DNA of 64,000 nt, taken from assembly GCF_001750685.1 (NCBI RefSeq), contig NZ_CP017269.1, positions 1,465,416 to 1,529,415 on the forward strand, given 5' to 3'. Positions 23,173 to 60,051 of the stretch are shown here, piece after piece. Each line of letters begins with the position of its first letter. Position 1 is the stretch's first letter. Under the pieces are notes generated by a model that ran no database searches, was not told where the DNA came from, and saw only the letters and a program-made list of their open reading frames with translations. The translations under genes and the position numbers were made by a program. This DNA is from Geosporobacter ferrireducens (lineage in GTDB: Bacteria; Bacillota; Clostridia; Peptostreptococcales; Thermotaleaceae).

Positions 23173-23184
23173 GGAGTATGTTCC

Positions 23185-27143: not shown

Positions 27144-27153
27144 ACCCTCTTAA

Positions 27154-32918: not shown

Positions 32919-33199
32919 AGGTTTGAGGAAGGATTTGAACCTTCTACACATCAGTTCTCTTAGGGCAAGCTCAGGCATACATAGGATCATGGATCAAATG
33001 CACCGCGCAGTCTCAAAACTGCCGCATTAAGCTTGCTTCCACAGCACTCGGCTGTAATTATATATTATAATGAATTGCTTTTGTTTTCATGAAAAAAAGT
33101 GTGCGAAGTTTTATTTGGGATAGTAGACGCCAATCTCTTTCCTACCACATATGATAGTAGAAAGGTGGTTTTGGAGGTGTTCCTAAAACATTTCCCTTT

Positions 33200-33661
33200 A
33201 TGGGAGTATTAAGATTAGAATCAAGGGGTCAAGTACTGCAAGCCGCTTATCCTGTTGCTATTGGTAAACCCAGTATAGCTAGTCCTACAGGTACTTTCAA
33301 AATCACGGAAAAAGCCCCCAATCCAGATGGTGTATTCGATACACGACGGATGCGCTTCTATAAGGATTATGGCATCCACGGCACCAACAATCCTGCTTCG
33401 ATTGGTAACACCGTATCTAATGGCTGCATCCGTATGTTCAATGAGGATGTGAATTTCATCTATGCAGTGGTCACCATCGGCACAGATGTTCGGATCATTC
33501 CTTCTGAAAGAAGTTTCCGTACCTATGCGGTACAGCCAGGAGGCACCTTGTATTCTATTGCTTTGAGATTTGGCGTATCCTTTTCGGATCTTCTTAGCGC
33601 AAATGTCGGCGTGGATAATGTAGATGTGATCTATATAGGACAGGAGTTGGTTATTCCTTAA
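33200..33661 (+). CDS. small L,D-transpeptidase (YkuD catalytic domain) with C-terminal LysM domain; the only intact member of a dispersed repeat family
   Basis: Catalytic HGT...SNGCIRM (His/Cys) motif, and the LysM segment TYAVQPGGTLYSIALRFGVSFSDLLSAN. Confidence 0.8.
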   Translation: MGVLRLESRGQVLQAAYPVAIGKPSIASPTGTFKITEKAPNPDGVFDTRRMRFYKDYGIHGTNNPASIGNTVSNGCIRMFNEDVNFIYAVVTIGTDVRIIPSERSFRTYAVQPGGTLYSIALRFGVSFSDLLSANVGVDNVDVIYIGQELVIP

Positions 33662-33854
33662 AGAAAACCTTTTTATTTTATAGTGTTATCAGCATATATT
33701 ATTGTATGGATATATAATCTTGGAAACAACCCAAGCGTCCCCAAGGCTTCTATTGAGCAGACAAAAATGATGCCACGAAAACCCAGTGGTTCCCTGACAA
33801 AAGGTTATCTTGGTAACCATTTGAAAACGCTTTCTGTGTCAAATGATTATCCTA

Positions 33855-34511
33855 TTACTTTTCCTGTAATTCCTTCAATTTTTCTATGTCAGAAATAATA
33901 TATTCTTTTCCCTTTTCTTTTTTTAATACTCCCAACTCACAGAATTGCTCAATGACGTATAGCACATGACGATAACTAACATTCATATATTCAGAAACAT
34001 CTGTATGAGGAATACTATATATACTATTTTGTTGATATTGAAGAATAAACGCCGCAAGTCTTCTATTCAAAGAATAATTTAAGTTCTCACTCATTCGATA
34101 ACTTCTGGCTAATAATTTGTTGGCAATATACGATGCAAAATAAAAAGAAACTTTTGCATTTTCTTTGCACAATTTTCGTAATTCATTCATATTAAATTCC
34201 AAGCATTCGACATCTTGAAGAACTCTATTTTCTTTTATGTCTGATTCATAGCAGAACAAGGAAAGCTCCCCTAACCAGTCATTTTTCCCTACAAAGTCAA
34301 GGATTGAACGTCGCCCGTTTTTATGATCGATATAAATTTTAGCAGTCCCAGACAGAATAAAATAGCAATATACTGGACTACTGTTCAATTTATAAATATT
34401 ATCTCTTTTTAAGAAAGTCCTTTTCTTTCCGATTTCAAATACTACCGTCGGCATCTCATTATCAAAAAACATATATATTTCTCTCCAAATATGATATTTC
34501 TCATATTTCAT
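33855..34511 (-). CDS. Crp/Fnr-family transcriptional regulator
   Basis: cNMP-binding-like beta-roll plus C-terminal HTH SVSEYMNVSYRHVLYVIEQFCELGVLKKEKG. Confidence 0.8.
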   Translation of the reverse strand: MKYEKYHIWREIYMFFDNEMPTVVFEIGKKRTFLKRDNIYKLNSSPVYCYFILSGTAKIYIDHKNGRRSILDFVGKNDWLGELSLFCYESDIKENRVLQDVECLEFNMNELRKLCKENAKVSFYFASYIANKLLARSYRMSENLNYSLNRRLAAFILQYQQNSIYSIPHTDVSEYMNVSYRHVLYVIEQFCELGVLKKEKGKEYIISDIEKLKELQEK

Positions 34512-34572
34512 TTCCCTTTTTTATTATAACATGTTTATAAAAATAAGAATATTGCATTATCTGAGGTGAAAT

Positions 34573-35199
34573 ATGATTCCACAACATACGAAAAAGTTAT
34601 TATATTCAGTATTGGCTTTCCTGACGCTGGGCTTAGGTATTTCTCTGCAAATCAAAGCTGGGATTGGGCAAAGTATGTTTAATGCCTTTTCTTTGATTTT
34701 GGCAGAGTTATCTAATTTAGAGATCGGAACTGTGCTTAACTTTTTAAATATGTCATTTCTTATAATTTATCTCATGGTCCGACGGTCTCAAATTAACCGC
34801 CGAGATATTGTTCAAATAGTTGCGACTATAGTAAATGGCTATATCGTTAACTTTTATATTTACATCATTTTGAACCATTTAATAATTCAAACATACTTGA
34901 TGAAAGTATTGTTATTTATGATTGGGCTTATATTAGCTTCCATTAGTCTCGGGGCAATTCTAGCTATGGAGATCATTCAGTTCCCTCTAGAAAGTTTATG
35001 CATTGCATTGGCTCAAAAGCTTGGATGTAAACTGACGACAATTCGAATGCTATTTGATATTTTCTTTGCGATTAGCACTCTGATACTTACTTCAATAACC
35101 AGTCGTGGCCTATATATAAGAGAAGGAACTATCATTAGCTTTTTCATGCTCTCAAGGTTAATGGGTTTCTCATACTATTTTCATAAAAAACATTTATAG
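34573..35199 (+). CDS. YczE/YitT-like polytopic membrane protein
   Basis: 208 aa, 5-6 TM helices, motif IKAGIGQSMFNAF. Family call is tentative. Confidence 0.5.
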   Translation: MIPQHTKKLLYSVLAFLTLGLGISLQIKAGIGQSMFNAFSLILAELSNLEIGTVLNFLNMSFLIIYLMVRRSQINRRDIVQIVATIVNGYIVNFYIYIILNHLIIQTYLMKVLLFMIGLILASISLGAILAMEIIQFPLESLCIALAQKLGCKLTTIRMLFDIFFAISTLILTSITSRGLYIREGTIISFFMLSRLMGFSYYFHKKHL

Positions 35200-35214
35200 A
35201 AGGAGTTGTAGATT

Positions 35215-36253: not shown

Positions 36254-37258
36254 TTAGCATATCCTGGGGAGCATATCTCCCTCAAGAGGCCCAACAATTC
36301 TCCTGCCCCCAATAACTGTTTCCATCACTACCTTTGGAAATAGTCCAGTGGAAAGAAAGCTACCAATGATTGCTGCATCTTCACAGTCTTCACATTGCCA
36401 AATTTCCTCTAGTACCGCTCTAGCCTTCTGCTTGTCAACCACAATGATCAGCCTGCCCTCACAGGCATGATATAGTGGGTCTAGTCCTAAAAGCTCATTG
36501 ATAGATTTCACTTCCACAGCTATCGGAATAGCCTCTTCTAATAGCTGAATTCCGCGTCCTGATGCCTCTAGGATTTCATTTAAGGCAGTTGCCAAACCTC
36601 CTCTGGTAGGATCCTTCATTAACTTAATACTTCCCATATATGTCTGAAGCTTTTCAAGAATATGATTTAATGGTCTACAATCGCTTTTTATATTTTCTTC
36701 TACTTTTATTCCATACCGTTCCACCGCTATGGTAGTGCCATGCTGGGCAATTCCCCCAGTGATAATAATTTGATCTCCCGCTTGAATGGGTTTTGGTTGA
36801 TACTGAGCCTGAACCACGCCTATTCCAGAAGTATTGATGAATACCCCATCTACTGAGCCTTTCTCCACCACCTTTGTATCTCCTGTGATTATTTTCACTC
36901 CTGTTTTTCTACAGGTCTCTCCGATGGAGGCTGCAATTCTCTCAAGCAGCTCCATATCAAAGCCCTCTTCAATGATAAAGCCACAGCTTAAATATAATGA
37001 TCTGGCTCCTGCTGCAACGAGATCATTTATGGTACCACAGACAGCTAATTTGCCAATGTTTCCCCCTGGAAACACCAGAGGCTTTACAACAAAGGAGTCT
37101 GTTGTAAAGGCCAGTCTCCCATGAATCCCATCAAATACAGATGCATCTAGAGAATTTACTAACATATCGTTATGAAAATGCTTATAAAAGATATCCTTGA
37201 TCAGTATGCTTGTATGTTTTCCTCCGTCTCCATGGCGGAGCATCACTGTTTTTTCCAT
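36254..37258 (-). CDS. hypE: [NiFe]-hydrogenase maturation factor HypE (carbamoyl dehydratase)
   Basis: AIR-synthase-like fold: LRHGDGGKHTS N-terminus and C-terminal PRIC. Start MEKTV at 37258, one nt after the hypD stop. Confidence 0.9.
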   Translation of the reverse strand: MEKTVMLRHGDGGKHTSILIKDIFYKHFHNDMLVNSLDASVFDGIHGRLAFTTDSFVVKPLVFPGGNIGKLAVCGTINDLVAAGARSLYLSCGFIIEEGFDMELLERIAASIGETCRKTGVKIITGDTKVVEKGSVDGVFINTSGIGVVQAQYQPKPIQAGDQIIITGGIAQHGTTIAVERYGIKVEENIKSDCRPLNHILEKLQTYMGSIKLMKDPTRGGLATALNEILEASGRGIQLLEEAIPIAVEVKSINELLGLDPLYHACEGRLIIVVDKQKARAVLEEIWQCEDCEDAAIIGSFLSTGLFPKVVMETVIGGRRIVGPLEGDMLPRIC

Positions 37259-37259
37259 T

Positions 37260-38354
37260 CTACACTTCCTCCCCATACCGATAGTCAATGGAACAAGCCC
37301 CCTCTGTAGACACCATACAAGGCCCCTGAGGGCTCATTGGGTTACATCCTTTCTTAAAAAGCTTACATTCCCTCGGTGTCTTCTTTCCCAGTAAAATATC
37401 CTTACAATCACAGCCCATACTGACTTTTACCTGTTGATTTTCTAGCACAAATACCTTTCTTGCATCAAATCTAGCATATTTTTCTTTAATCTGTAGAGAA
37501 GAGTTTTCTATGTTACCAATTCCCCGCCACTCTCCATCTAAAATATTGAATACCTCATCTATCAACAGATTGGCAGTGGTATTCCCTTGAGGGCTTACAC
37601 ATCTTTTATATAGATTTTGAAAGGCGTCTTCTTTCCCTTGGGTGATCTGCTTCACCAGATAATATATCCCTGCTACAATGTCAACAGCTTCAAATCCACA
37701 TACGGCAGCTGGAACATGGTACTTCCTATTTATAAACTTAAAATAATCAGATCCCTTAATCGTAGCCACATGGCCTGGACAGATAAATCCATGGATCTGA
37801 TTGTTAGATTCCTTTAAAATATAATGCAGGATTGGTGCCATTAGCTTGAGGGAGGTAAGGAAATATAGGTTATCAATGCCCCTCTCCGCAGCCGTTTTAG
37901 TTGCTAAAGCTATAATAGGAGCTGTAGTTTCAAAACCTACCCCTAGAAAAACAATTTGTTTTCCTCTGTACTTTTCTGCTATATCAATGATGTCTAAAGG
38001 TGAATAAATTATCCTGACATCCTTCCCCTTCCCCTTTTCCTCCAGCAGGCTTCCCTTTCTTCCCCTCACTTTCATCAAGTCTCCAAAGGTAACCACTGTT
38101 ACATTATATCTATTTAAAATCTCTATAGCCCAGTCAATATACCTTTCTTCCGTTACACAGACAGGGCATCCTGGACCTGATAAAAGCTTTATTTTGGAGG
38201 ATAACAGCGTTCTTAGCCCCAGCTTAGCAATCATCTGAGTGTGGGTACCACAGACCTCCATAATCTTTATTTCTTCTGTGACCATGGAATTCACCTCATT
38301 GATTAGGTTGGTTAACAAATCCTTATCTATATCTATCTTCCTTCTCATTTCCAT
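37260..38354 (-). CDS. hypD: [NiFe]-hydrogenase maturation factor HypD
   Basis: Motifs MEVCGTHT, GPGCPVCV and FxCPGH. Start region overlaps the hypC end. Confidence 0.9.
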   Translation of the reverse strand: MEMRRKIDIDKDLLTNLINEVNSMVTEEIKIMEVCGTHTQMIAKLGLRTLLSSKIKLLSGPGCPVCVTEERYIDWAIEILNRYNVTVVTFGDLMKVRGRKGSLLEEKGKGKDVRIIYSPLDIIDIAEKYRGKQIVFLGVGFETTAPIIALATKTAAERGIDNLYFLTSLKLMAPILHYILKESNNQIHGFICPGHVATIKGSDYFKFINRKYHVPAAVCGFEAVDIVAGIYYLVKQITQGKEDAFQNLYKRCVSPQGNTTANLLIDEVFNILDGEWRGIGNIENSSLQIKEKYARFDARKVFVLENQQVKVSMGCDCKDILLGKKTPRECKLFKKGCNPMSPQGPCMVSTEGACSIDYRYGEEV

Positions 38355-38562
38355 CCACCATACTTTCAAGTATACCTAGTAAATCATCATAATAGCTTCT
38401 GTCAATCTTCTCAATAGCACACCCCACATGGATTAGCACATGCTCTCCAACCTTTAAATGTTCAATTAATTGTATATTGACAATCGTTTCTACACCCATG
38501 ATTTTTACCCTCGCCTCGGGAGAAAATAATTCAATAACTTCCCCAGGAACTGCAATACACAT
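38323..38562 (-). CDS. hypC: [NiFe]-hydrogenase maturation factor HypC/HupF
   Basis: N-terminal MCIAVPG (essential Cys2). 79 aa. Confidence 0.85.
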   Translation of the reverse strand: MCIAVPGEVIELFSPEARVKIMGVETIVNIQLIEHLKVGEHVLIHVGCAIEKIDRSYYDDLLGILESMVDGNEKEDRYR

Positions 38563-38563
38563 A

Positions 38564-40858
38564 TCAACCCTTCCCTTCTATTGCAGCTGCTATCCCTAAT
38601 TGTCCAACTGAAATCCCACTATCATTGGTGGGAATTTGTTGATGATAATAAACGTCGTAGTCTCTTTTCTTTAACCCCTTTACTACATAAGACAATAGAT
38701 AGATATTTTCAAAAACCCCTCCGCTGAATACGATATTGTTTATATGATATCTTTCCTTTATTCTAGTGATCATCTCTAGGGTCACATTGCCTATAGTATT
38801 ATGAAATTTAGCTGAAACAGCAGAAGGAGATAATTCATCCTCTATATCTTTTAAAACCCCCATTAGAATACTTTTATAATCAATTTGATAAACTCCATTT
38901 TCTTCTCCTATATGATAAGAATAGTATTCTTTAACTGAAGGGTCTAAAATATTTTCTAATTCAATGGCAGCCTGAGCATCGTAGGTAATTCGCTGTCGTA
39001 GATTCAGTAAGGCTGCCACACAGTCAAAAAGCCTTCCCATACTAGAACTTTCAAAGCAGTTTAAGTTTTGATCCAAAGCCTGTCTGACTGTATAAATACT
39101 TTTTTTGTCTACTTCTCTCAAAACCTTCTTATACTTATAATCGATTGCATGTATATAGCTGATGGCAATTCTCCAGGGTTCTTTGATTGCTTGATTCCCG
39201 CCTTGTATGGTGACATATTTTAAATGTCCTACTCGACTAAAACTCTCCCTTGTACCTACAAAAAACTCTCCGCCCCATATTTTGCCGTCTGTCCCTAGAC
39301 CCGTTCCATCAAAAACTACCCCTATCACAGGAGAAAATAGTCTGTGCTCCACCATACAACTAACCATATGGGCATGATGATGTTGTACTGCTATTTTTTT
39401 ACCTGCTATCGATTCTGCATATTGAGAGGATAAGTAGCTCCCATTGTAGTCATGAGCGATTACTTTAGGCTTCAATCCTAATAGGTTTACTAAATTTCCT
39501 ATTGCTTTTTCATAGATCCCATAAGTATCAAAATCCTTTAAGTCTCCTAAATACTGACTCATATACCCGTATTGATTTTGAGCAGCACAAAATGTACTTT
39601 TTTCCTCTGCCCCCAAGGCTAATGCTTCTTGTGTTATATTAATTGGAAAGGTGAAGGGGATATAGCCTCTTGCCCTTCTTACCAAAACCTCTTGGTCGTT
39701 TACTACCTTTATAACGGAATCCTCCACTGGGATATGTATATCTCGATTATGCATTAAGAAATAATCAGCAATCCTTCTTAGGTTCTCAATGGCTTCATGA
39801 TTTTCATATTGTACTGGAGCACTGCTTCTATTGCCACTGGTCATGACAAGCGCTGTGATTGTCCCCTCAAACAGTAAATAATGTAACGGTGTATAAGGGA
39901 GCATCACTCCCAATTTTTTCATATTCGGAGCAATTTCATCAGGTAGTGTCTTAGACGCCTTTTTTTCTAATAGAACAATAGGTCTTTTATTGCTTAACAG
40001 GATTTTTTCTTCTATTTCATTGATCATACATAATTCTCTTGCTACCTCTATATCCTTTACCATAAGAGCAAAGGGCTTATGGGGCCTGTTTTTTCTTTTC
40101 CTCAAAGCTTTTATAGTCTCTTGATTTCCAGCATCACAGGCTAAATGATATCCTCCTAGTCCTTTAATAGCCACTATTTTCCCTCTCTGCAAAAGGTCTA
40201 TGGTTTTTTGAATAGGATCAGTGCACAGCACTTTCCTTCCTTCATTCGTCAATACATATACAGAGGGTCCGCAATTTGGACAACAATTGGGTTGAGCATG
40301 AAATCTCCTATCCGCTGGATCATTGTATTCTCCCCTGCAGCTAGGACACATTTGAAAGTCATCCATGGTTGTATGAATTCGATCATAAGGCAATTTCCTA
40401 AGAATAGAATACCGAGAGCCACAAGCTGTACAATTTGTAAAGGGGTAATGATATCTCGGGTTATGTATATTAAATATTTCTTCTAGACACTGGGGACAAG
40501 TAGCCACATCTACACCGATAAATTTAAGCCCTTTTTCATCAGAGGAGCTGAATTTAATTTGAAAGTCTATATAGCCCTTATATTCCTTCGAAATTAATTG
40601 TATCTTTTCTATGATGGACAGATTAGGAGGATTCTTAATAATTTTTATTAAAAAATCTCTTATGGCTTTCCCTTCTCCCTCTATATCTAGGAGAACAGCA
40701 CTTCCCTGATTGCTAACCCAGCCTTTAATGTTAAAAAACTCAGCCTGGTTGTAAATATAAGGCCTGTATCCTACCCCTTGGACGATTCCATAAATTTCTA
40801 TTATGTACCTTCTCTTATCGATATCCTTAAGACGATTGTTATAGTTCAAAGGTCTCAC
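38564..40858 (-). CDS. hypF: [NiFe]-hydrogenase maturation carbamoyltransferase HypF
   Basis: 764 aa: acylphosphatase domain, two CxxC-x18-CxxC zinc fingers (CPQC...CTAC, CPSC...CPNC), YrdC and Kae1-like domains. Confidence 0.9.
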   Translation of the reverse strand: MRPLNYNNRLKDIDKRRYIIEIYGIVQGVGYRPYIYNQAEFFNIKGWVSNQGSAVLLDIEGEGKAIRDFLIKIIKNPPNLSIIEKIQLISKEYKGYIDFQIKFSSSDEKGLKFIGVDVATCPQCLEEIFNIHNPRYHYPFTNCTACGSRYSILRKLPYDRIHTTMDDFQMCPSCRGEYNDPADRRFHAQPNCCPNCGPSVYVLTNEGRKVLCTDPIQKTIDLLQRGKIVAIKGLGGYHLACDAGNQETIKALRKRKNRPHKPFALMVKDIEVARELCMINEIEEKILLSNKRPIVLLEKKASKTLPDEIAPNMKKLGVMLPYTPLHYLLFEGTITALVMTSGNRSSAPVQYENHEAIENLRRIADYFLMHNRDIHIPVEDSVIKVVNDQEVLVRRARGYIPFTFPINITQEALALGAEEKSTFCAAQNQYGYMSQYLGDLKDFDTYGIYEKAIGNLVNLLGLKPKVIAHDYNGSYLSSQYAESIAGKKIAVQHHHAHMVSCMVEHRLFSPVIGVVFDGTGLGTDGKIWGGEFFVGTRESFSRVGHLKYVTIQGGNQAIKEPWRIAISYIHAIDYKYKKVLREVDKKSIYTVRQALDQNLNCFESSSMGRLFDCVAALLNLRQRITYDAQAAIELENILDPSVKEYYSYHIGEENGVYQIDYKSILMGVLKDIEDELSPSAVSAKFHNTIGNVTLEMITRIKERYHINNIVFSGGVFENIYLLSYVVKGLKKRDYDVYYHQQIPTNDSGISVGQLGIAAAIEGKG

Positions 40859-41099
40859 CTTGGAGACTATGAATAATGGCTGTCTGCTCCTCTATATCTT
40901 CTCTTTGTAATTTAATCCGTAGGGCATCTCCTATGCATTCCTTACTATGAATCTCTAAGTGTTCCCGTAAGCTCTCTTCATTAACATGACTATGATGGTT
41001 CACCACCAATGTAAATGCTTCTATTTTCTTCAGTTTATATTCCTGACATAGTTCCTTTAGGGATTGTGCTATTTTATTTAATAAATAAGTATCATGCAT
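40839..41099 (-). CDS. HypA-like nickel metallochaperone N-domain protein lacking the C-terminal Zn-ribbon
   Basis: MHDTYLL N-terminus resembles the HypA MHE nickel-binding start, but no CxxC...CxxC is present. Position in the operon matches hypA. Confidence 0.45.
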   Translation of the reverse strand: MHDTYLLNKIAQSLKELCQEYKLKKIEAFTLVVNHHSHVNEESLREHLEIHSKECIGDALRIKLQREDIEEQTAIIHSLQGETFEL

Positions 41100-41111
41100 T
41101 TTAAACCCTCC

Positions 41112-41552
41112 TTATGATTTGATAATGAATTGATACACTTCCTCACATATATGAGAGAGCCTGGTTTCTAATACGTTGCTCAGTTTTAAACTAAAATCAA
41201 TCTCTTCCACTTCGATACCAACGATAAATCCGTCAACAGATTTTCCATAGATCTTTAGGAGGTGAACGAAACTTGGTTGGTGCTGTGAATAAGCTTGCGG
41301 ATGCGCTTTAATAGATTTATCAATCGGAGTAAAGGTTACAGTACCTGGTTTCACATTAAAGTAGGTTGCATCAAGAATAAATAAAAAATCTCCGTCCTCA
41401 ATTTTGCTTAAGGTAAAATCAATATCTGTCTCTCCTAGTATTACTTCGATGCCAATATGCTTCAACCGTGGTGAAAGTTCCTCTCCTACCCTGATTCCTA
41501 TGCTATCATCCCCCATGATCCGATTGCCAATCCCAATACATTTTACAGCCAT
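41112..41552 (-). CDS. hydrogenase maturation endopeptidase (HyaD/HybD/HycI family)
   Basis: IGIGNRIMGDDSIGIRV motif. Likely start MAVKC at 41552 next to the large-subunit stop. Confidence 0.85.
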   Translation of the reverse strand: MAVKCIGIGNRIMGDDSIGIRVGEELSPRLKHIGIEVILGETDIDFTLSKIEDGDFLFILDATYFNVKPGTVTFTPIDKSIKAHPQAYSQHQPSFVHLLKIYGKSVDGFIVGIEVEEIDFSLKLSNVLETRLSHICEEVYQFIIKS

Positions 41553-41553
41553 C

Positions 41554-42963
41554 TTATACAATCCTAATCTGCACCAAAGAATATCCACCACTTAATACAT
41601 GAGTGGCACAGGAAACACAGGGATCAAAGGACCTAACAATTCTTCCTATTTCCACAGGTTTTTTCAAATCTTCTATGGTTGTTCCTATCAATGCTTTTTC
41701 TACTACTCCCTTGAGTCCTCTAGAATCTTCTGGTGATAGATTCCATGCAGTGGGGGTAATAATCCCATAGTTTTGAATGCCTTCATCTTGAGTGGTAACC
41801 CAATGACCTAGGGCTCCTCTCGTAGTATCGATAAGCCCCTTTCCCTTGGCTTCACCTGGAAACGCATATCTTCCTTGTTGCGTTGGCTTAAACTCTACCC
41901 GTTCCAAAAGACCCTCCATAATTTCGATGATTTTTCCTACTTCTAACACCCTGGCAATGATTCTATCCATAGTTGAAATACCTCTGGTATAGTTACCACT
42001 TAACCACATCCTTGCAAGGGGGCCAACTTCCATGGGATTTCCTTCATACCGTGGTGCTTTAATCCAACTATAGCCCTCCTCCTTATACACATTTTCTTCT
42101 ACCGTTGGCTCCGTTGGTCTTTGTTCTGTCTGCCTTGCCTCATACCAAGCTCGATGAATGTTTTCAGTAATTTTTTCGGGGTTGAATCCTTGTAGCTCTC
42201 CATTGATAAATACCTGGGGACCCACATAAAATAGGTCTTTTTCCACGTAAGTATCAAATACCCCATAGGTCATTAGATTTTTATATCCTACTCCATTTTT
42301 AAAGTAATCAGGGTAATATTCTGCAGTGGTATATACATCAGGTATCATTCGTGTTACCACAAAATTCTTAATGGAGGCTAATATGGATTTGACCTTAATC
42401 CATTTCGCCGCATCTAGGTTCACTGTCACACCCCCTACAAATATGCCATGGGTATGGGGGGCTTTACCTCCAAGTACAGCTAACATTTCATGGGCTAGCC
42501 GGCTGTACTCAAGAGACTCCACATAGTTTCCAGATAACTCCCTATTCAACTCCTCAGGCAATCTATAATCATTATGAGTAACATTGTATAAAGGTTGAAT
42601 CTCCGGCCCCCTTACAAAGTCTGGCAAGGTATATTGGTAGAAATGCCTTAAATGGTTTTGAATAAATTCACATCCATGCATAAAATCTCTAATCATCTTG
42701 TCATTTTCATTAGGACAAATGTCTAATATATCTTCTAAGGCTAAAGTAGATCCCATGGAATGGGCAGTAGAACAAATACCACAAATTCTTTCTGTAAAAT
42801 AGATGGCATCCAAAGGCGGTCTTCCCCTTAACATTTTTTCAAAACCCCTAAAGAGCATACCACTACTTTTAGCATCGATAATTTGATTTTCTTCAACCTC
42901 TACTTGAATTTCTAAAAACCCACTGATTCGGGTAATTGGGTTGATGGTAATTTTACTTCCCAT
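41554..42963 (-). CDS. [NiFe]-hydrogenase large subunit
   Basis: N-terminal RICGICSTAHS (RxCGxC) and C-terminal DPCVSCATH (DPCxxCxxH), followed by a 14-aa extension removed by the protease. Confidence 0.9.
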   Translation of the reverse strand: MGSKITINPITRISGFLEIQVEVEENQIIDAKSSGMLFRGFEKMLRGRPPLDAIYFTERICGICSTAHSMGSTLALEDILDICPNENDKMIRDFMHGCEFIQNHLRHFYQYTLPDFVRGPEIQPLYNVTHNDYRLPEELNRELSGNYVESLEYSRLAHEMLAVLGGKAPHTHGIFVGGVTVNLDAAKWIKVKSILASIKNFVVTRMIPDVYTTAEYYPDYFKNGVGYKNLMTYGVFDTYVEKDLFYVGPQVFINGELQGFNPEKITENIHRAWYEARQTEQRPTEPTVEENVYKEEGYSWIKAPRYEGNPMEVGPLARMWLSGNYTRGISTMDRIIARVLEVGKIIEIMEGLLERVEFKPTQQGRYAFPGEAKGKGLIDTTRGALGHWVTTQDEGIQNYGIITPTAWNLSPEDSRGLKGVVEKALIGTTIEDLKKPVEIGRIVRSFDPCVSCATHVLSGGYSLVQIRIV

Positions 42964-42984
42964 AGTTTCCTCCCAAGTATTATT

Positions 42985-43863: not shown

Positions 43864-43878
43864 ATGACTCCCTCCAAT

Positions 43879-44328: not shown

Positions 44329-44644
44329 TCCATCTCCTCCAACATTCTTGATTTTATAAATTTTATGTTACGAAATCAGGAATTATTAGCCTTAACGGTT
44401 AGACCTCTACAAATTTGGTCCCTAGAGATTCTAAGAAGTTATATATCCATAACTATGATTTATAGAATTCTAACCAGTTCCTTACTTTTATAAAATCTCT
44501 TTGTTTTGCGAAATTTTTCCCCCTATAAAGCAAAGACCCCTAAACTTATCGTCTAGAGGAACATCCATCATTTTTTATTTTCATCTAAGACTTGCTAAGC
44601 TACTGATTTTAACCTACTTCTTCTCTATCAAAACCACACATTCT

Positions 44645-44880
44645 ACATCTCAAACGGCTGCGTCCGTATATTTAAAGAAGATGTTAATTTTATATAAGCG
44701 CTGGACACCATCGGTACAGCGGTTCGAATCATTCCTTCTGAGAGAGGTTTCCGTACCTATGCGGTGCAGATGAGATGTACCTTGTATTCCATTACCTTAA
44801 GCTTCGGAGTATCCTCTGAGAATCTTGTTGGTGTAAATGTGAGTGTGGATGCGATTACTGCTATTTTTTTGGGTAAAGCG
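44645..44880 (+). pseudogene. 3' fragment (catalytic Cys to LysM end) of a YkuD-LysM L,D-transpeptidase paralog
   Basis: Aligns at the nucleotide level with 33415-33660 of the intact copy (NGCVRIFKEDVNFI*...IIPSERGFRTYAVQ...) with frameshifts and stops. Homology starts abruptly at CAAACGG. Confidence 0.6.
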
Positions 44881-44966
44881 TTATTTACTGGTTAACAGCC
44901 TATTTCAGCGGGAAAAAGAGCGCAATGGTCATTATATTCCGGATGTAAAAAAGGATTGTTAGCTGA

Positions 44967-46070
44967 TTAGTGATCGGATTTAAGACCTGCTCCACACATA
45001 GGGATCAAGCAATCGGATAGCTTTTCATTTAATTCACAATACTTTAGGTAGGCTGCAAAAGTGGCTGCTGTTGTATGCTCACAATAAATACCTTTTGCAG
45101 CAAGAACTGTCCTGGCTTCCATAATTCGATTTTCAGGAGCTGTAATGATTTTAATATTGTGCTTATAGGTATATTCTAAAATTTCCTCGCCACGTATGGG
45201 TATGCCAATAGCAATTCCCTCAGCCATTGTTGGCTCAGGCTTCACCTTAACTGGATACTTTTCTTTTGTAACAAATGCTTTTGCAAAAGGATCACAGTAT
45301 TCGCTTTGAACGGCTATGATATTGGGCATTTTCTCAATGACAGCGCTCTCAAGAAGTTCTTCCAATGCCTTCACAATACCAATAAATAGCGTACCGTTAC
45401 CCAGGGGAACAAAAATATTTTCAGGAATTCTGTGCATTTGCTCATAGACTTCATAAATATATGTTTTTGTGCCTTCATAGAAGAACGGATTATACACATG
45501 GCTTGCGTAATATTTTCCCTCAGTATCCACTTTTGCTCTGCAGGCATCCGCACAGTCATCCCTTGTACCATGAACCACATTTACCCGTGTATTATGGGAT
45601 TGAATCATATTGATTTTTTTTGGTGATGTTCCTTCAGGAACAAAAATCTCACAATCTATACCCGCTTTTGCACTGTAAGCTGCCACACTATTTCCGGCAT
45701 TGCCACTGCTGTCCTGCACAACAGAATCTACCCCAATAGCTTTGCAGTGGGCAATCAATACGGCGGCACCTCTATCTTTAAAAGACAAGGTCGGCATGAA
45801 ATAATCCATTTTAAGTAGGACATCTTCATCAAACTGAATCACAGGGGTCATACCTTCTCCTAAACTGATTTTACGCCAGTGTTCTCCTTCCAATGGCATG
45901 AAAGCTCGATAACGGAAAATGCTCCAAGTATCACGATCCACTAAGGATAGATCAAACTTTGGAGGCTTATAATCCAATTTCCAAAGACTCCCACAGTCGC
46001 ACTTTGCCCTTTTCGTTGTTACCTCCGTCCCTATACCACACTTTGAACAGGTATATTTCATTTTTGACAC
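44967..46070 (-). CDS. thrC: threonine synthase-like PLP enzyme (Trp-synthase beta fold with N-terminal Zn-ribbon)
   Basis: CSKCG...CDCG zinc ribbon, SFKDRG PLP-lysine motif and GNAGNS glycine loop. Confidence 0.65.
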   Translation of the reverse strand: MSKMKYTCSKCGIGTEVTTKRAKCDCGSLWKLDYKPPKFDLSLVDRDTWSIFRYRAFMPLEGEHWRKISLGEGMTPVIQFDEDVLLKMDYFMPTLSFKDRGAAVLIAHCKAIGVDSVVQDSSGNAGNSVAAYSAKAGIDCEIFVPEGTSPKKINMIQSHNTRVNVVHGTRDDCADACRAKVDTEGKYYASHVYNPFFYEGTKTYIYEVYEQMHRIPENIFVPLGNGTLFIGIVKALEELLESAVIEKMPNIIAVQSEYCDPFAKAFVTKEKYPVKVKPEPTMAEGIAIGIPIRGEEILEYTYKHNIKIITAPENRIMEARTVLAAKGIYCEHTTAATFAAYLKYCELNEKLSDCLIPMCGAGLKSDH

Positions 46071-46079
46071 ACCTCCGCA

Positions 46080-46441
46080 ATCGCTTCAATTTCTATAAGA
46101 CATCCAAAGTGGAGTTTACCAACAGGCACAACTGTCCTTACTGGTTTGTGTTCGCCAAAGAATTCAGTATACACTTGGTTAACGATGTCTCACTGGTCGA
46201 TATCTGATACATACACTCTACACTGGACAACATCATTACGATTAAGCCCAGCTTCTTCTAGCACTCGGTCAACATTTTCCAGAGCAAGTTTCGCGTGTGC
46301 TTCGATTCCCCCATCTGGCACATTCCGGGTATCTGGATCTATAGATAGTTGTCCAGATATATACAACATTCCATTTGAAATAATTCCAGGTGTATAATGG
46401 CCTTTGTTTTCACCACGGTATTTTGGTTCTATCTTATACAT
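46080..46441 (-). pseudogene. ridA: RidA/YjgF-family deaminase interrupted by an in-frame TGA
   Basis: The frame reads ...RVYVSDIDQ*DIVNQVYTEFFGEHKPVRTVVPVGKLHFGCLIEIEAIAEV. The stop aligns with the conserved aromatic residue before the VNEVY motif. Confidence 0.6.
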
Positions 46442-46574: not shown

Positions 46575-46955
46575 TGCTTCTATTTCATTACATTACTTGT
46601 AAACGGGTGATATAACTTCAAGAACACGAATATACAGCAGGATTTAAAGGAGTTCATGCTTTTATGTAGAAGTTCGTTATGATACAAAAGATTTACACAG
46701 GAGGTACTGATATGAAAAAGGCGGTACTGATTTTAAGGTAGGTGGCTTAAATCATTTAACAAAACAAGGATGGCTTAGTACGATTATCACCATAGTTATA
46801 TTTATCGGAATATGGTTTTTTCTTTCTCAATGAGAATAATAGATGGTAGAATGAATCGAAAAATCCAGCGACGGGTGTACCCACCACGGGCTGGATTCGT
46901 TTCTTTGAAGACTATGGCACCCATGGAATCAACAATCCTGCTTGGATTGGCAACG
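46575..46955 (+). pseudogene. leader plus 5' fragment of the YkuD-LysM paralog (repeat family copy)
   Basis: Shares CATTACATTACTTGTAAAC...ACTTCAAGAA-ACGAATATA-AGCAGGATTTAAAGGAGTTCATGCTTTTATG and GGTAGAATGAATCGAAAAATCCAGCGACGGGTGTACCCACCACGGGCTGGATTCG with the 57.6-kb and 59.6-kb copies. Homology to the gene stops at GGCAACGG. Confidence 0.55.
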
Positions 46956-47077
46956 GGGAGACAAACGAAACGTCCCCAAGCCCTTATTGATCCCAAACCT
47001 GCTTCCGCTCTATCTGTGCTACAGGATTGTATGTAAAACCTATCCTATAATGAATGAAAGTTGGGTCATATATAATT

Positions 47078-51681: not shown

Positions 51682-51693
51682 TACAAATCCTCC

Positions 51694-52719: not shown

Positions 52720-52734
52720 TGTTCTCCCTCCATT

Positions 52735-54376: not shown

Positions 54377-54438
54377 TTACTCAACTCCTGTTCTAACATG
54401 GAATTTTTATAGAATAAAACAACTATGACATTCTGCTA

Positions 54439-55263: not shown

Positions 55264-55276
55264 TAAAAAACAGCTC

Positions 55277-57016: not shown

Positions 57017-57520
57017 CTATACGCAACCTACTCGACTACCCTTTTTTGACAGCTTATCTGCAATCCCTGTGGATGCATAGGATTCTGGTTTAATACAGCA
57101 TTTAAACCCTAATGCCCCCACCCAACCTGCAATTTCCTTTACTAAATACTTCGTATCTCCACCCTCACCAATATCTACGTGCACCTCTAAGGCAGCACGG
57201 ATTTCCTTCTTTTGAATATACTCCATAACCTTTGCAGCTAATTCAAGACTATATTGGGTTTCCACAAATATCTTATGCCGGAGATCATTAATTATTTTCA
57301 ATCTTTTTATATCATAAAAAAAGATGCCTCCCTTGGACTTGCGAACCAGGGTGATTACAGAAACCATTTTTGTAAGACCACTGAAGTTTTGAGAGTCTGT
57401 TCCAATAGAAATCACATAGGTACATTGTAAATCCATGTCAATGTAATCTTTTATTTTTTCACATACTTCTTGAAAACTTAGTTCCCCATAAGTGATACTT
57501 TTCATCCTATACACCTCCAA
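57017..57520 (-). CDS. YkuK/DUF458-family RNase-H-fold protein
   Basis: ISIGTDSQ motif characteristic of DUF458. 167 aa. Confidence 0.5.
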   Translation of the reverse strand: MEVYRMKSITYGELSFQEVCEKIKDYIDMDLQCTYVISIGTDSQNFSGLTKMVSVITLVRKSKGGIFFYDIKRLKIINDLRHKIFVETQYSLELAAKVMEYIQKKEIRAALEVHVDIGEGGDTKYLVKEIAGWVGALGFKCCIKPESYASTGIADKLSKKGSRVGCV

Positions 57521-57629
57521 GAACTTTTCTAAACTGTCATATTTATATCATACGCCTTCAGTATTTTCTTACGAGGTTTTAATATTAAGATTTTCTAAAT
57601 TTCATGTTAATCATACACCAGTTTTCAAA

Positions 57630-57897
57630 CTATTTCATTACATTACTTGTAAACTGTTGTTAAAGTTAAAGTTAAGCATTAAATATAACTTCAAGAAAAC
57701 GAATATAAAGCAGGCTGCCACAGCCTGTTTTTATCATACTGATAGGTTCCCTAAATTTTTAAACATAAGGATTAGCGAGATACAGCAGGATTTAAAGGAG
57801 TTCATGCTTTTATGCAGAATATGGTTTTTTCTTTTCAGATGAGCGCAGTGGATGGTAGAATGAATCGGAAAATCCAGTCTTTTCAGTAAAATACCTT
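57630..57897 (+). pseudogene. leader plus extreme 5' fragment of the YkuD-LysM paralog (repeat family copy), truncated at AAAATCCAG
   Basis: Same leader as 46575-46870, with an internal 70-bp insertion/duplication. Ends ...GGTAGAATGAATCGGAAAATCCAG, then unrelated sequence. Confidence 0.55.
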
Positions 57898-58274
57898 ATT
57901 GATATCACAAAGCAAAGGAAGTGCAAAATAACACTTCCTTTGACAGCGCCTAATTACATATAAAAGAATCCACATTTACCATACGTGTTCCGATAAACAA
58001 GAAAGCGCGTGATGAAATGAAAAGAGTAATTTTGCTCAAATTTTTTTGTTAGCGATACTGCTATTATAGTCTCCTCAATGGAACGAGCTCTCATAACTGC
58101 TGAGAGCTCTATATTATAAAGAGGGGGATAACCTCATAAATACAGTTTAAAACAAGATTATGAATAAACTATGAACAAACTATGAAGAATTTATCATTTT
58201 TTGTAAAATAAAAAATCAAGGGTATGTTTAAGAAAGTGGTTGAAAATGATATATCCTTATAAAGTTATTTTGCA

Positions 58275-58540
58275 ATTGTAGAATAGTGCGACATACAGGG
58301 GAACACCACAGGGAGTGTTCCATGCATCACATACCGACAGGCTGTTATTTCCTGTAGGGGAGAACATTGTTCTCCCGATGCATATCATTAGCGGGCGCAC
58401 ACTGTGCGCCCCTACATTGTCTCCCACATAAGGATAGCGGTAGGGGCAGACCTGTGTGTCTGCCCAAAGAGACGGCAAAATTAACGGGTGGACACATAGG
58501 TCCACACTCCACCAATATGTCGCACTAATCTACCTATGCG
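58275..58540. mobile_element. MITE-like non-autonomous element with 18-bp terminal inverted repeats (GTAGAATAGTGCGACATA ... TATGTCGCACTAATCTAC) and an internal array of GC hairpins
   Basis: Seen directly. GC-rich. Internal hairpins GGGAGAACATTGTTCTCCC, GGGCGCACACTGTGCGCCC, GGCAGACCTGTGTGTCTGCC and GTGGACACATAGGTCCAC. The ORF 58257..58505 across it is Cys/Pro/Gly-rich nonsense. Confidence 0.5.
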
Positions 58541-58785
58541 CTATATGATTAATCTCTGATATCATAGAAAAAAAAGTAATAGGATAGAATGAAAGAGACT
58601 GGCAAGGAAAATATATCATCACAAGTAAGTATATCTAGAAGACAAACGAATCGTCCCCACAAGTCCTACATTGTATATTTAAATAGGAAATAAATTACAT
58701 TTTCTCTATTGACTGTACTTGCATCAATGGATAAACTAGATACAAAGAATTATAATCGACTATCCTATCTATTAAAACGGAGGTA

Positions 58786-59562
58786 ATGGTCATGTCAAAT
58801 TATGTTTTGTCATTAGATAACGCTAGAATAGCTTATGACGTTACTGGGCACGGACCAGCGATCTTGCTAGTTCATGGCATGGGATCAAAGGTGAATAAAA
58901 ACCTATGGAAGGACACTGGCTGGGTAGAAAAACTCACTCCTCATTTCACTGTGATTACAATGGATTTGAGGGGGTTTGGCGAGAGTGATAAATCCCACGA
59001 TCCAGAATTTTACTCAATCAATAATATTATTAATGATATTCATGCAGTTATAAATGCCTGTGGGTTTAAAGAATACCACTATTTTGGACATTCTTATGGG
59101 GCAACAATTGGACTACAGACATGTATTTTAAGTAAACATGTACAAAAGGTCATTTGTGCCGGTACTACATTTGGAGATAGTTTCTTCAAGGAGTCAGTAC
59201 CAAAATGGATTGATGAATATGAAATCTTAAATACTTGCAAGCAAACTAAAACTTATAGTAATCAAGATTTGGCAGAAGAAGATATCGAATGGGTAGAAAA
59301 TACGGATATAGAAATAATAATCGCTCAACTAATGGCTATGAAGTCTTGGAAAGGCATTGATGTTTGTGATATTACTAAAAAATTAGCAGTATATACAGGC
59401 TTCAATGATAATCCTTTGGTTCTGGAAAACTTTGAGCAAAACGAGAATCAACTAAAGCGCAACGAAATCGCTCATAAAATATTTGATAACCTTAACCACA
59501 GCGATCTAGTTAGTAAAGTTGATACTGTCTTACCTTGGGTATTGGAATTTCTCCTTCAATAA
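58786..59562 (+). CDS. alpha/beta-fold hydrolase
   Basis: LLVHGMGS oxyanion motif and nucleophile elbow GHSYG. 258 aa. Confidence 0.8.
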   Translation: MVMSNYVLSLDNARIAYDVTGHGPAILLVHGMGSKVNKNLWKDTGWVEKLTPHFTVITMDLRGFGESDKSHDPEFYSINNIINDIHAVINACGFKEYHYFGHSYGATIGLQTCILSKHVQKVICAGTTFGDSFFKESVPKWIDEYEILNTCKQTKTYSNQDLAEEDIEWVENTDIEIIIAQLMAMKSWKGIDVCDITKKLAVYTGFNDNPLVLENFEQNENQLKRNEIAHKIFDNLNHSDLVSKVDTVLPWVLEFLLQ

Positions 59563-59624
59563 TAACTTGCTGCACTTTTAGCTTAATGAAATATAGCAAG
59601 CATAGCCCCTATAGAAGAATTTAA

Positions 59625-59884
59625 AAATCCAGCGACTGATGTACCCACCACAGGCTGGATTCGTTTCTTTGAAGACTATGGTATCCCATGGCACCAATCA
59701 TCTTGCTTCGATTGGCAAAGCTGTTTCCAATGGCTGTGTCCGTATGTTCAATGAGGATGTGAACTTCATCTATGCTGTGGTAACCATCGGTACTCAGGTT
59801 CGAAGCATTCCTTCTGAGAGAAGCTTCCATACTTATACGGTACAGCCTGGAGATACTATGTATGCCGTAGTCTACAAAATATAA
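59625..59884 (+). pseudogene. 3' two-thirds of the YkuD-LysM paralog (from AAAAATCCAG to the stop), frameshifted relative to the intact copy
   Basis: ...YPPQAGFVSLKTMVSHGTNHLASIGKAVSNGCVRMFNEDVNFIYAVVTIGTQVRSIPSERSFHTYTVQPGDTMYAVVYKI*. Aligns to 33300-33560 with indels. Confidence 0.6.
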
Positions 59885-59886
59885 AA

Positions 59887-59927
59887 AGTAGGCTTTATAC
59901 TTGTGTCAAATATAAAGCCTACTTTTT
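59887..59927 (+). terminator. rho-independent terminator (12-bp stem GTAGGCTTTATA/TATAAAGCCTAC, then TTTTTTA)
   Basis: Seen directly, right after the paralog fragment stop. Confidence 0.6.
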
Positions 59928-60051
59928 TACGCTATACCATTGTTTTGCGATGCCATTAGTAAATTATTCCTGCTCCGATAGTAGGATGGTTTTACATTTT
60001 CTATTGCCAGCAGAACCTTCCCTTGTAACACATAAGCTAAGAACTTCTGTT

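What the first reader, a model, noticed from the sequence alone, without database searches (positions are those of the whole stretch)
33100..59930. Dispersed repeat family built from the leader and coding fragments of a small L,D-transpeptidase gene (five loci)
One intact YkuD-LysM gene sits at 33200-33661. Four partial copies sit at 44.6, 46.6, 57.6 and 59.6 kb and share 85-95% identity with each other. The copies at 46.6 and 57.6 kb carry an about 200-bp leader that is modular, with a 70-bp and a 130-bp indel. The leader is absent from the intact gene, which has a different upstream region and a different first 35 codons. The copies all sit at junctions between functional gene blocks: hydrogenase | thrC-ridA | GAF-FapA, and ABC importer | hydrolase | Opp. 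They may mark recombination seams of accessory modules or the ends of a larger composite element.
Basis: seen in the sequence. Interest (0 to 1): 0.6.

Follow-up and report, generated by a model that had tools for sequence, protein, structure and literature searches.

The report
Decayed transpeptidase gene copies at seams
These are genomic fossils, not an active repeat: leftovers of an old cell-wall enzyme (L,D-transpeptidase) gene family and of a mobile-element cargo segment, lying between gene blocks of the Geosporobacter ferrireducens chromosome.

Summary
The repeats are real, and three other assemblies reproduce them. They are not one family with a "leader".

The window is Geosporobacter ferrireducens chromosome. 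Four loci (A 33.2, B 44.6, C 46.9, E 59.6 kb) derive from a 235-aa PG_binding_1-YkuD-LysM gene. Its full-length copy and a sixth fragment lie about 19 and 29 kb beyond the window. All are on the + strand.

The "intact" gene A has lost 82 residues by an in-frame deletion. B, C and E are pseudogene pieces.

The copies are old: dS is about 0.9-1.4 between lineages and 0.4-0.5 for A/F and C/E.

The "leader" (C, D) is unrelated to the transpeptidase. It is a deletion-riddled copy of a lipoprotein-DUF6366 segment. The intact version of that segment lies elsewhere in the genome, next to a large serine recombinase in an element that interrupts cotJC. D holds no transpeptidase sequence.

In C and E the segment is fused to transpeptidase nt 352 at an AATCCAG microhomology.

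Relatives confirm that the neighbouring blocks (hydrogenase, ridA-thrC, FapA-GAF, Opp) have separate histories, with breaks within about 150-220 bp of relics B and E.

No recombinase, terminal repeats, common core or Rfam match was found.

Verdict: ordinary gene-decay relics in a plastic region. Low interest.

The parts
33125..33199 (+). Native promoter/5' region of the transpeptidase unit upstream of copy A
   Evidence: Homologous to the region upstream of the full-length genes: L001 2361-2471 and L026 9938-10044, the latter 80%.
33200..33661 (+). Copy A: 153-aa YkuD-LysM ORF. It is an in-frame internal deletion (P0122 nt ~39-272, 82 aa) of a 235-aa PG_binding_1-YkuD-LysM gene.
   Evidence: Pfam YkuD match covers profile positions 19-146 of 146, plus LysM. 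Alignments. dN/dS 0.11 against the full-length copy. AF2 pLDDT 80 with best PDB match 1Y7M YkuD.
33662..33756 (+). Native downstream region of the transpeptidase unit. The terminator hairpin present in F and G. subterraneus is missing here.
   Evidence: 33667-33703 matches F downstream at 92%. 33703-33734 matches the G. subterraneus downstream. 33722-33756 resembles 46957-46990.
44647..44895 (+). Fragment B: 3' part of a transpeptidase copy (P0122 nt ~460-708), with an in-frame stop at codon 170 and a degenerate LysM
44967..46061 (-). thrC-like PLP enzyme gene (364 aa), cargo lying between B and C
   Evidence: Pfam PALP. At least 90% aa identity but 79-80% nt identity to Sporomusa, Paenibacillus and Clostridia homologues.
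46058..46441 (-). ridA with an in-frame stop at codon 84 (pseudogene). It forms a conserved pair with thrC; a strong promoter-like site lies at 46506-46478.
46580..46868 (+). 'Leader' of C: relic of the lipoprotein-DUF6366 segment
   Evidence: Pieces match L025 9042-9106, 9207-9251 and 10100-10234 at 88-90%. The first ~60 bp are shared only with D.
46862..46967 (+). Fragment C: transpeptidase nt ~352-457/470, joined to the segment at the AATCCAG microhomology (46862-46868)
   Evidence: Shares a 3-nt insertion (CGA) and the fusion junction with E.
46957..46990 (+). Piece resembling the transpeptidase downstream region. Its core, AGACAAACGAAACGTCCCCA, recurs at 58640-58659.
   Evidence: 28/35 matches to 33722-33756, z=8; 2 matches in the window, 0 in 100 shuffles.
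57630..58218 (+). Relic D: copy of the segment with its native downstream and three large deletions. It contains no transpeptidase sequence.
   Evidence: 57781-57819, 57819-57993 and 58077-58213 match L025 9042-9081, 10175-10349 and 12461-12586 at 88-93%.
58286..58519 (.). GC-rich multi-hairpin element with 11-bp terminal inverted repeats. It differs between strains and is not part of either source family.
58563..58632 (+). Continuation of relic D, ending in the last codons of a large serine recombinase gene read on the minus strand (3'-end relic)
   Evidence: Aligns to L025 12576-12640; the same 42-nt end is duplicated at L025 8902-8943.
58640..58659 (+). Second copy of the 20-nt motif AGACAAACGAATCGTCCCCA
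58786..59562 (+). alpha/beta-hydrolase gene, cargo lying between D and E
   Evidence: Pfam Abhydrolase_1. 98% identical in L042, together with E.
59612..59885 (+). Fragment E: 21 nt of DUF6366-downstream sequence (matching a 22-nt stretch of C with a 1-nt deletion), then the same fusion junction as C, then transpeptidase nt ~352-610. It has a +1 frameshift at 59686 and a premature stop. An 81-aa residual ORF spans 59639-59884.
59883..59927 (.). 45-nt palindromic, bidirectional terminator-like hairpin between E and the Opp operon
   Evidence: The synteny and divergence break lies just beyond it.

Best explanation
The five loci are non-functional or semi-functional leftovers of two unrelated ancestral sequences. 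They sit in a chromosomal stretch of Geosporobacter ferrireducens that has been rebuilt many times.

(1) A gene-sized unit (promoter, 235-aa PG_binding_1-YkuD-LysM L,D-transpeptidase gene, terminator) was duplicated repeatedly in direct orientation. This happened long ago: dS is about 1 between lineages. A/F and C/E reflect later copying or gene conversion (dS about 0.4-0.5). One copy stays full length, 18.6 kb past the window. Copy A lost its PG-binding domain by an in-frame deletion but kept the catalytic core under purifying selection. B, C, E and the out-of-window F were cut down by deletions, a nonsense mutation and a frameshift.

(2) A 3.6-kb cargo segment (lipoprotein, DUF6366 and others, up to the 3' end of a large serine recombinase gene) has an intact copy lying beside a recombinase-bearing element that interrupts cotJC elsewhere in the genome. 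It was copied into this region at least twice (C, D). It then shrank through deletions between short direct repeats.

In one copy the segment became joined to transpeptidase nt 352 by illegitimate recombination at AATCCAG. That chimera is the common ancestor of C and E.

Unrelated operons (hydrogenase, ridA-thrC, FapA-GAF, ABC importer, hydrolase, Opp) now lie between the relics. Redundant copies and their intergenic surroundings are neutral places where insertions and replacements are tolerated.

Shown directly: the homologies, breakpoints, disabling mutations, age, strain conservation and block boundaries. Inferred: the order of events and the neutral-landing-place argument.
For: - Source organism and full-length paralogue.
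- Domain content and deletion in A.
- A's fold is YkuD-like.
- Stops and frameshifts in B, C, D, E.
- dS 0.85-1.4 between lineages; dN/dS 0.11 for A and 0.2-0.4 for B and E.
- Leader equals a relic of the L025 segment.
- Recombinase 3'-end relic in D.
- L025 recombinase is a phage-type large serine integrase.
- C and E share a fusion junction and a 3-nt insertion.
- No Rfam family.
- No inverted repeats.
- No mobile-element gene in 33-64 kb.
- Relics are identical or near-identical in a second strain and present in a 94.6% relative.
- Blocks have separate histories.
- Many truncated transpeptidase ORFs occur in sister genera, so the family decays often.
Against: - All six transpeptidase-derived loci are on one strand (chance about 3%). 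All fragments lack the 5' third of the gene, and the fuller copies lie upstream of the fragments. That ordered pattern is not predicted by random decay alone.
- C's transpeptidase part ends at nt 457-470 and B's starts at nt 460. Taken alone this coincidence has about a 3% chance. With several breakpoints compared it is unremarkable.
- The complete genome could not be searched, so copies elsewhere and the true copy number are unknown.
- Synteny with G. subterraneus could not be obtained.
Confidence: 0.7

Rival explanations
1. Accretion at a landing pad. The transpeptidase unit, or its 3' flank, is a recurrent integration or recombination target. Each incoming block displaced or duplicated the 3' part of the target. 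This left a direct-orientation series of 3' fragments downstream of a fuller gene, as with tandem islands at tRNA genes. Serine-recombinase elements would be the vehicles.
For: - All copies are in the same orientation.
- All fragments lack nt 1-305, and fuller copies (A, P0122) lie upstream of fragments (B, C, E; F).
- Relics lie within 150-220 bp of block boundaries seen in relatives.
- A recombinase 3'-end relic at 58563-58632 abuts a transpeptidase-downstream-like motif.
Against: - Fragment 5' ends differ (nt 306, 352, 460) and share no core.
- The nt-352 end is explained by a microhomology fusion to the segment.
- There is no intact recombinase in 33-64 kb.
- The intact element targets cotJC, not the transpeptidase.
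- D copies an L025-like tandem structure, including its internal junction, which points to segmental duplication rather than independent integration.
- The blocks are ordinary operons.
- Divergence is ancient.
Confidence: 0.13
2. B and C are the two halves of a single fused copy, circularly permuted around ridA-thrC. A 2.3-kb circle (44.65-46.95 kb) would have been excised and re-inserted, or integrated through a site inside the gene.
For: C's transpeptidase part ends at nt 457-470 and B starts at nt 460, both on the + strand and in the order 3' half, cargo, 5' half.
Against: - C is followed by sequence resembling the gene's own downstream region, as expected for an internal deletion rather than a cut.
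- B's downstream shows no such homology.
- B-E identity (78%) is lower than C-E identity (87%), though not significantly (p=0.12).
- With several breakpoints compared, one coincidence within 10 nt is not unlikely.
Confidence: 0.08
3. The leader is a functional cis-regulatory RNA, promoter module or small mobile repeat (MITE-like) that spreads on its own.
For: - Two copies share blocks of 84-100% identity.
- D carries a hairpin plus T-run.
- Promoter-like hexamers occur.
Against: - Only two copies exist in the window, and only one intact source elsewhere.
- The content is recognisable coding remnant of two genes.
- Neither copy precedes an intact ORF.
- There is no Rfam match at gathering or E<=1.
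- There are no terminal inverted repeats or target duplications.
Confidence: 0.04
4. The fragments are assembly artefacts (collapsed or chimeric repeats).
For: None found.
Against: The same arrangement appears in an independent MAG assembly at 99.2-99.85% identity, in Logan contigs and in a 94.6%-identical metagenome contig.
Confidence: 0.01

Closest known systems
Paralogue decay relics (pseudogene fragments left by duplication and deletion in bacterial chromosomes)
   Same: Stops, frameshifts and internal deletions between short direct repeats. dN/dS is relaxed relative to the intact copy. The relics are fixed in the species and no mobility machinery is present.
   Different: There is an unusually dense, same-strand series: at least six transpeptidase-derived loci in about 60 kb, interleaved with unrelated operons. 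The relics are old (dS about 1) yet still recognisable.
Direct-repeat 3' gene fragments flanking tandemly accreted genomic islands (integrases targeting the 3' end of tRNA/tmRNA or protein genes; own knowledge)
   Same: Partial 3' copies in direct orientation at block junctions, with a fuller gene at the upstream end.
   Different: There is no adjacent integrase and no shared core. The fragment boundaries differ, the fragments are strongly diverged, and the blocks are ordinary operons.
Sporulation-gene intervening elements excised by large serine recombinases (skin in sigK, SPbeta in spsM; own knowledge; a sigK element is described in PMC3442830)
   Same: The intact source of the 'leader' lies beside a phage-type large serine recombinase in an element that splits cotJC after codon 33 (L025).
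   Different: That element is at another locus. In the window only decayed cargo and about 7 codons of a recombinase survive. No sporulation gene is split here.
B. subtilis YkuD (PDB 1Y7M), a LysM + L,D-transpeptidase spore protein
   Same: Copy A has the YkuD catalytic core (His60, Cys76 in SNGCIRM) and one LysM domain. Its model matches 1Y7M at E=4e-10 with 39% identity.
   Different: The domain order is reversed (LysM is C-terminal). Copy A lacks the first beta-hairpin of the domain and the PG_binding_1 domain of its own family.
Orphan 3' modules of Rhs/CDI polymorphic toxin loci (own knowledge)
   Same: Displaced 3' gene fragments in direct orientation downstream of a full gene.
   Different: There is no variable toxin tip or immunity gene. 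The fragments here are plainly degenerate.

Membership tests
YkuD L,D-transpeptidase + LysM (copy A) | YkuD and LysM profile matches above the curated thresholds | tested here: met
   PF03734 scores 67.5 bits (cut-off 23.4) and PF01476 scores 51.1 bits.
YkuD L,D-transpeptidase + LysM (copy A) | Catalytic His and Cys in the HGT...SxGC[IV]R motif | tested here: met
   H60 and C76 are invariant in the 29-sequence alignment. The motif is also present in E and B.
YkuD L,D-transpeptidase + LysM (copy A) | Complete catalytic domain, including the N-terminal beta-hairpin | tested here: not met
   Profile positions 1-18 are absent. The in-frame deletion removes 'RILVNLAQRRLYLYLDE' and PG_binding_1.
YkuD L,D-transpeptidase + LysM (copy A) | YkuD fold | tested here: met
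   AF2 pLDDT is 80 overall and 86-91 for most of the core. The top PDB hits are all L,D-transpeptidases, with 1Y7M at E=4e-10.
YkuD L,D-transpeptidase + LysM (copy A) | Transpeptidase activity | not testable with these tools
   dN/dS of 0.11 against the full-length copy suggests past constraint only.
Transposable element / MITE-type dispersed repeat | Terminal inverted repeats and target-site duplications at the copy ends | tested here: not met
   No inverted pairs of at least 40 nt in the window. The copy ends differ and lack duplications.
Transposable element / MITE-type dispersed repeat | Several near-identical copies | tested here: not met
   Transpeptidase parts are 70-87% identical, with dS 0.5-1.4. 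There are two leader copies with large indels. Only the window and about 60 kb of other loci could be searched.
Transposable element / MITE-type dispersed repeat | Cognate transposase nearby | tested here: not met
   The only one is an IS110-family gene at 1880-3193, which is 30 kb away and unrelated.
Integrase-mediated island accretion at a target gene | Recombinase gene at an island end | tested here: not met
   Only a relic of the last few codons survives, within 58563-58632. The intact gene is at another locus.
Integrase-mediated island accretion at a target gene | The same core sequence repeated at every junction | tested here: not met
   Fragment boundaries lie at transpeptidase nt 306, 352 and 460. 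The one extra shared motif occurs at two places only.
Integrase-mediated island accretion at a target gene | Partial target copies in direct orientation, delimiting blocks that are absent or differently placed in relatives | tested here: inconclusive
   Orientation is met. Block boundaries in relatives lie 150-220 bp from relics. No empty site or relative with an uninterrupted gene was recovered.
Cis-regulatory leader RNA / riboswitch | Match to a described RNA family, or a conserved structure upstream of intact genes | tested here: not met
   No Rfam hit at gathering or at E<=1 in 57500-60100. Both leaders precede pseudogene remnants. Covariation is untestable with two copies.
Lipoprotein-DUF6366 segment (source of the leader) | Collinear nucleotide and protein homology to the intact locus | tested here: met
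   88-93% nt identity in five blocks. tblastn of the DUF6366 protein against 46735-46830 gives 84% identity.

The most novel reading that the evidence does not exclude
The transpeptidase unit acts as a reusable landing pad. Gene blocks carried by serine-recombinase or similar elements repeatedly entered at or beside a transpeptidase copy, each time leaving a displaced 3' fragment. The 60-kb stretch would then be an interleaved 'gene fragment / cargo block' accretion array anchored on a protein-coding cell-wall gene. The many truncated YkuD-LysM ORFs in Geosporobacter and Anaerosolibacter relatives would be footprints of the same process.
Probability: 0.12. Interest if true: 0.55.

Novelty: new member of a known kind. 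Interest (0 to 1): 0.2.

Why it matters
Mostly as a caution. What looks in raw sequence like a modular dispersed repeat with a leader is a mosaic of two unrelated decayed sequences. The 'intact' gene is itself a deletion derivative.

It has modest value as a map of a plastic chromosomal region. The relics date and locate old joins between accessory operons (hydrogenase, ridA-thrC, hydrolase, Opp). They also show that cargo next to a sporulation-gene-interrupting serine-recombinase element has been copied to other chromosomal sites.

If the landing-pad reading were true, it would be an unusual case of island accretion on a protein-coding gene.

Tried and rejected
Readings considered and dropped:
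1. D and E as one copy split by a 1.74-kb insertion with a 16-bp target duplication. Rejected because D runs on into the native DUF6366 downstream (57878-57993 matches L025 10235-10349), whereas E carries the fusion junction seen in C.
2. The leader as the 5' UTR plus signal-anchor of the ancestral transpeptidase. Rejected because full-length family members start with PG_binding_1 and have a different upstream region. The 'anchor' is the C-terminus of DUF6366.
3. thrC-ridA as a recently mobile cassette, since its 90%-identity protein cluster spans Sporomusa, Paenibacillus and Clostridia. Rejected because nt identity is only 79-80%, so this is strong purifying selection rather than recent transfer.
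4. Selection on fragment E, which has a 191-bp run without differences against L042. Not supported, because the whole hydrolase-E block is 98% identical and the few changes in the residual ORF are all non-synonymous.
5. The 41-bp, 95% match between F and P0122 as an att-like core. Weak, because that stretch (GKPSTPTPTG) is about 90% conserved across species anyway.

Searches that led nowhere:
- The genome-contig scan did not contain G. ferrireducens and returned only a 3.5-kb G. subterraneus contig.
- A chimeric four-protein query, meant to fetch G. subterraneus orthologues of flanking genes, returned only GAF hits.
- Exact look-ups of P0002 and of the 258-aa hydrolase failed.
- An Rfam E-value scan gave only chance-level hits.

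Full report
**Source and observation**

The protein of ORF 33200-33661 is 100% identical to an annotated 'L,D-transpeptidase family protein' of Geosporobacter ferrireducens, seen on a 5.79-Mb contig. The window is therefore chromosome of that clostridial species.

- A, 33348-33553, matches E, 59657-59863, at 81%.
- A, 33416-33616, matches B, 44650-44850, at 78%.
- C, 46847-46953, matches E, 59612-59718, at 87%.
- B matches E at 78%.
- Four collinear leader blocks link C (46580-46868) and D (57630-57877) at 86-100% (84-100% with the more sensitive settings).

The repeats are real. The stated 85-95% identity holds only for C-E and the leader.

Translations show that B, C, D and E are riddled with stops or frameshifts. 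Rfam at gathering thresholds finds nothing in the region. No tRNA genes were found.

**The transpeptidase family**

The closest relatives of A are 235-aa proteins with PG_binding_1, YkuD and LysM domains. One of them (P0002/P0122) is in the same species.

A second G. ferrireducens assembly (a MAG, GCA_009711625.1) places copy A at 29934-30395 of a 210-kb contig. The full-length gene sits at 79303-80010 on the same strand. That is about 18.6 kb beyond the window's end.

A further fragment, F, lies 10 kb beyond the full-length gene.

A nucleotide alignment of all copies gives the following anatomy:
- **A** keeps the native upstream region and the first ~12 codons. It then has an in-frame deletion of P0122 nt ~39-272, which removes the PG-binding domain and the first beta-hairpin of YkuD.
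- **B** is nt ~460-708, with a stop at codon 170.
- **C** is nt ~352-457/470.
- **E** is nt ~352-610, with a +1 frameshift.
- **F** is nt 306-336 joined to nt 566-708.

C and E share a 3-nt insertion.

Synonymous divergence between lineages is 0.85-1.4. It is 0.44 for A-F and 0.5 for C-E. dN/dS is 0.11 for A and 0.2-0.4 for B and E. These are old paralogues that decayed late, not recent repeat copies.

Copy A retains His60 and Cys76 and models as a YkuD fold (pLDDT 80; best PDB match B. subtilis YkuD 1Y7M). It may still be active.

Many truncated YkuD-LysM ORFs of 91-149 aa exist in Anaerosolibacter and relatives. Decay of this family is therefore common.

**The 'leader'**

The open frame inside C's 130-bp extra stretch, once repaired, hits a single protein. 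That protein is a 65-aa DUF6366 protein of G. ferrireducens encoded at a different locus, L025.

BLAST shows the leader is a collinear, deletion-riddled copy of that locus:
- C 46633-46696 matches L025 9042-9106.
- C 46690-46734 matches L025 9207-9251, the RBS and first codons of a 232-aa lipoprotein gene.
- C 46735-46869 matches L025 10100-10234, the DUF6366 3' end plus 36 nt.
- D 57819-57993 matches L025 10175-10349.
- D 58077-58213 matches L025 12461-12586.
- After a strain-variable insert, D 58563-58632 matches L025 12576-12640. This stretch includes the last codons of a large serine recombinase gene.

D therefore continues into native sequence and contains no transpeptidase DNA.

C leaves the segment at AATCCAG (46862-46868) and enters the transpeptidase at nt 352. 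E begins with 21 nt of the segment (matching a 22-nt stretch of C with a 1-nt deletion) and then has the same junction. C and E therefore descend from one illegitimate fusion.

The indels between C and D are bounded by short direct repeats (ATA[A/C]AGCAGG; GAA), as replication-slippage deletions are.

In L025 the segment is bracketed by a 42-nt direct repeat of the recombinase gene's 3' end. It lies immediately after cotJC, which is truncated at codon 33. The recombinase is a phage-type integrase (phrog_95, E=3e-104). The leader is thus fossil cargo from beside a sporulation-gene-interrupting element.

**Are the relics at seams?**
- A Logan contig at 85.7% identity shares only window 36254-44432, the hydrogenase block. 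Fragment B starts 215 bp further on.
- A Thermotaleaceae MAG at 92.6% identity shares the Opp operon only down to 60032 and then carries an APH gene. Fragment E ends at 59885.
- A metagenome contig was found using the fusion-junction pattern. It carries hydrolase, E, terminator and Opp at 94.6% overall. The hydrolase-E part is 98.1% identical and the rest 93.4% (p=1e-8). A recombination boundary therefore lies at about 59.9-60.0 kb.
- FapA-GAF and ridA-thrC occur as pairs in other organisms with different neighbours.

The blocks do have separate histories and the relics lie near their edges. Two caveats apply. Relics can only persist between operons. And other block edges, such as 36254, have no relic.

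**What it is not**
- Not an assembly artefact. The MAG is collinear over 23230-64000 at 99.2-99.85%, with A, B and C identical. Logan contigs end inside the leader repeats.
- Not a mobile repeat. There are no terminal inverted repeats or target duplications. There is no transposase or recombinase in 33-64 kb; an IS110 gene sits at 1880-3193. tblastn finds no further relics in the window.
- Not a known RNA element.

**Unresolved pattern**

All six transpeptidase-derived loci are on one strand (about 3% by chance). All fragments lack the 5' third of the gene. The fuller copies lie upstream of the fragments. B starts where C ends, within about 10 nt.

A 20-nt motif follows both C's transpeptidase piece (46959-46978) and D's recombinase relic (58640-58659). 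It resembles A's downstream region.

These features leave room for an ordered process: an old tandem array later invaded by blocks, or accretion at a landing pad. The absence of a common core, the microhomology fusion and the great age argue for plain duplication and decay.

I put 0.70 on decay relics, 0.13 on landing-pad accretion, 0.08 on B/C permutation and the remainder on other readings.

**Limits**

The complete genome and G. subterraneus synteny could not be searched. The genome-contig collection lacked the species and a chimeric protein query failed. Genome-wide copy number is therefore unknown.

Noticed in passing
window 58286-58519 (and 28723-28837): A 234-bp GC-rich element made of several strong hairpins (MFE -108 kcal/mol for the 246-nt stretch folded) is bounded by 11-bp inverted repeats, AGTGCGACATA...TATGTCGCACT. 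In the other G. ferrireducens assembly the same site holds a different ~136-bp hairpin element. That one is 88% identical, in inverted orientation, to window 28723-28837, which abuts the Rfam Clostridiales-2 sRNA hit (28817-28898). There is no Rfam match for the element itself. It looks like a small strain-variable structured repeat.
   Followed up: partly
L025 8794-14069 (other locus of the same species): cotJC is cut after codon 33. The cut is followed by a 42-nt copy of the 3' end of a large serine recombinase gene. Next comes a 3.7-kb cargo segment: lipoprotein, DUF6366, three small ORFs, and a glyoxalase-fold protein that a source names FosX. Then come the intact recombinase and phage-like genes. 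This looks like a sporulation-gene intervening element, possibly two in tandem. The 3' part of cotJC was not within the 20 kb held.
   Followed up: partly
window 46058-46441 (-): ridA carries an in-frame stop at codon 84 (DIDQ*DIV), while the overlapping thrC-like gene is intact. No ridA gene is called in the second assembly either.
   Followed up: partly
window 44967-46061 (-): The 364-aa ThrC-like PLP enzyme belongs to a 90%-identity cluster of 151 proteins spanning Sporomusa, Paenibacillus and Clostridia. Nucleotide identity is only 79-80%, so constraint is unusually strong. It pairs with RidA in some genomes and with a D-serine-dehydratase-like gene in others.
   Followed up: partly
L026 20256-20474 (about 29 kb beyond the window end): Fragment F is annotated as a 72-aa LysM protein. 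It is a chimera: 41 nt are 95% identical to the full-length copy and the LysM part is 90% identical to copy A. dN/dS of 0.19 against A suggests the LysM-only ORF may still be constrained.
   Followed up: partly
window 23000-29000 and 62000-63000: Differences between the two G. ferrireducens assemblies cluster at 10-26 per kb at 23-29 kb and 17 per kb at 62-63 kb. Most of 29-62 kb has 0-6 per kb (9 at 58-59 kb). This suggests imported recombination tracts.
   Followed up: no
window 1880-3193 (-): An IS110-family transposase gene (DEDD_Tnp_IS110 + Transposase_20) is the only mobile-element gene found among the window ORFs that were scanned (23-31 kb rests on the MAG's annotation).
   Followed up: no
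window 10000-13300: GC content rises to 0.46 against about 0.35 nearby. The ORFs here (10477-11859, 12523-12843, 12930-13232) have no Pfam match.
   Followed up: no
window 27652-27748 / 28087-28183: A 97-nt direct repeat at 73% identity. It lies mostly inside the second of two adjacent rhodanese-domain genes and just downstream of it.
   Followed up: no
L001 (G. subterraneus) and L026: The transpeptidase unit is homologous between the two species only from about 65 bp upstream to about 40 bp downstream of the gene. The neighbours differ entirely: LrgAB in one, Kdp and MCP in the other. The G. subterraneus copy sits alone on a 3.5-kb contig.
   Followed up: partly
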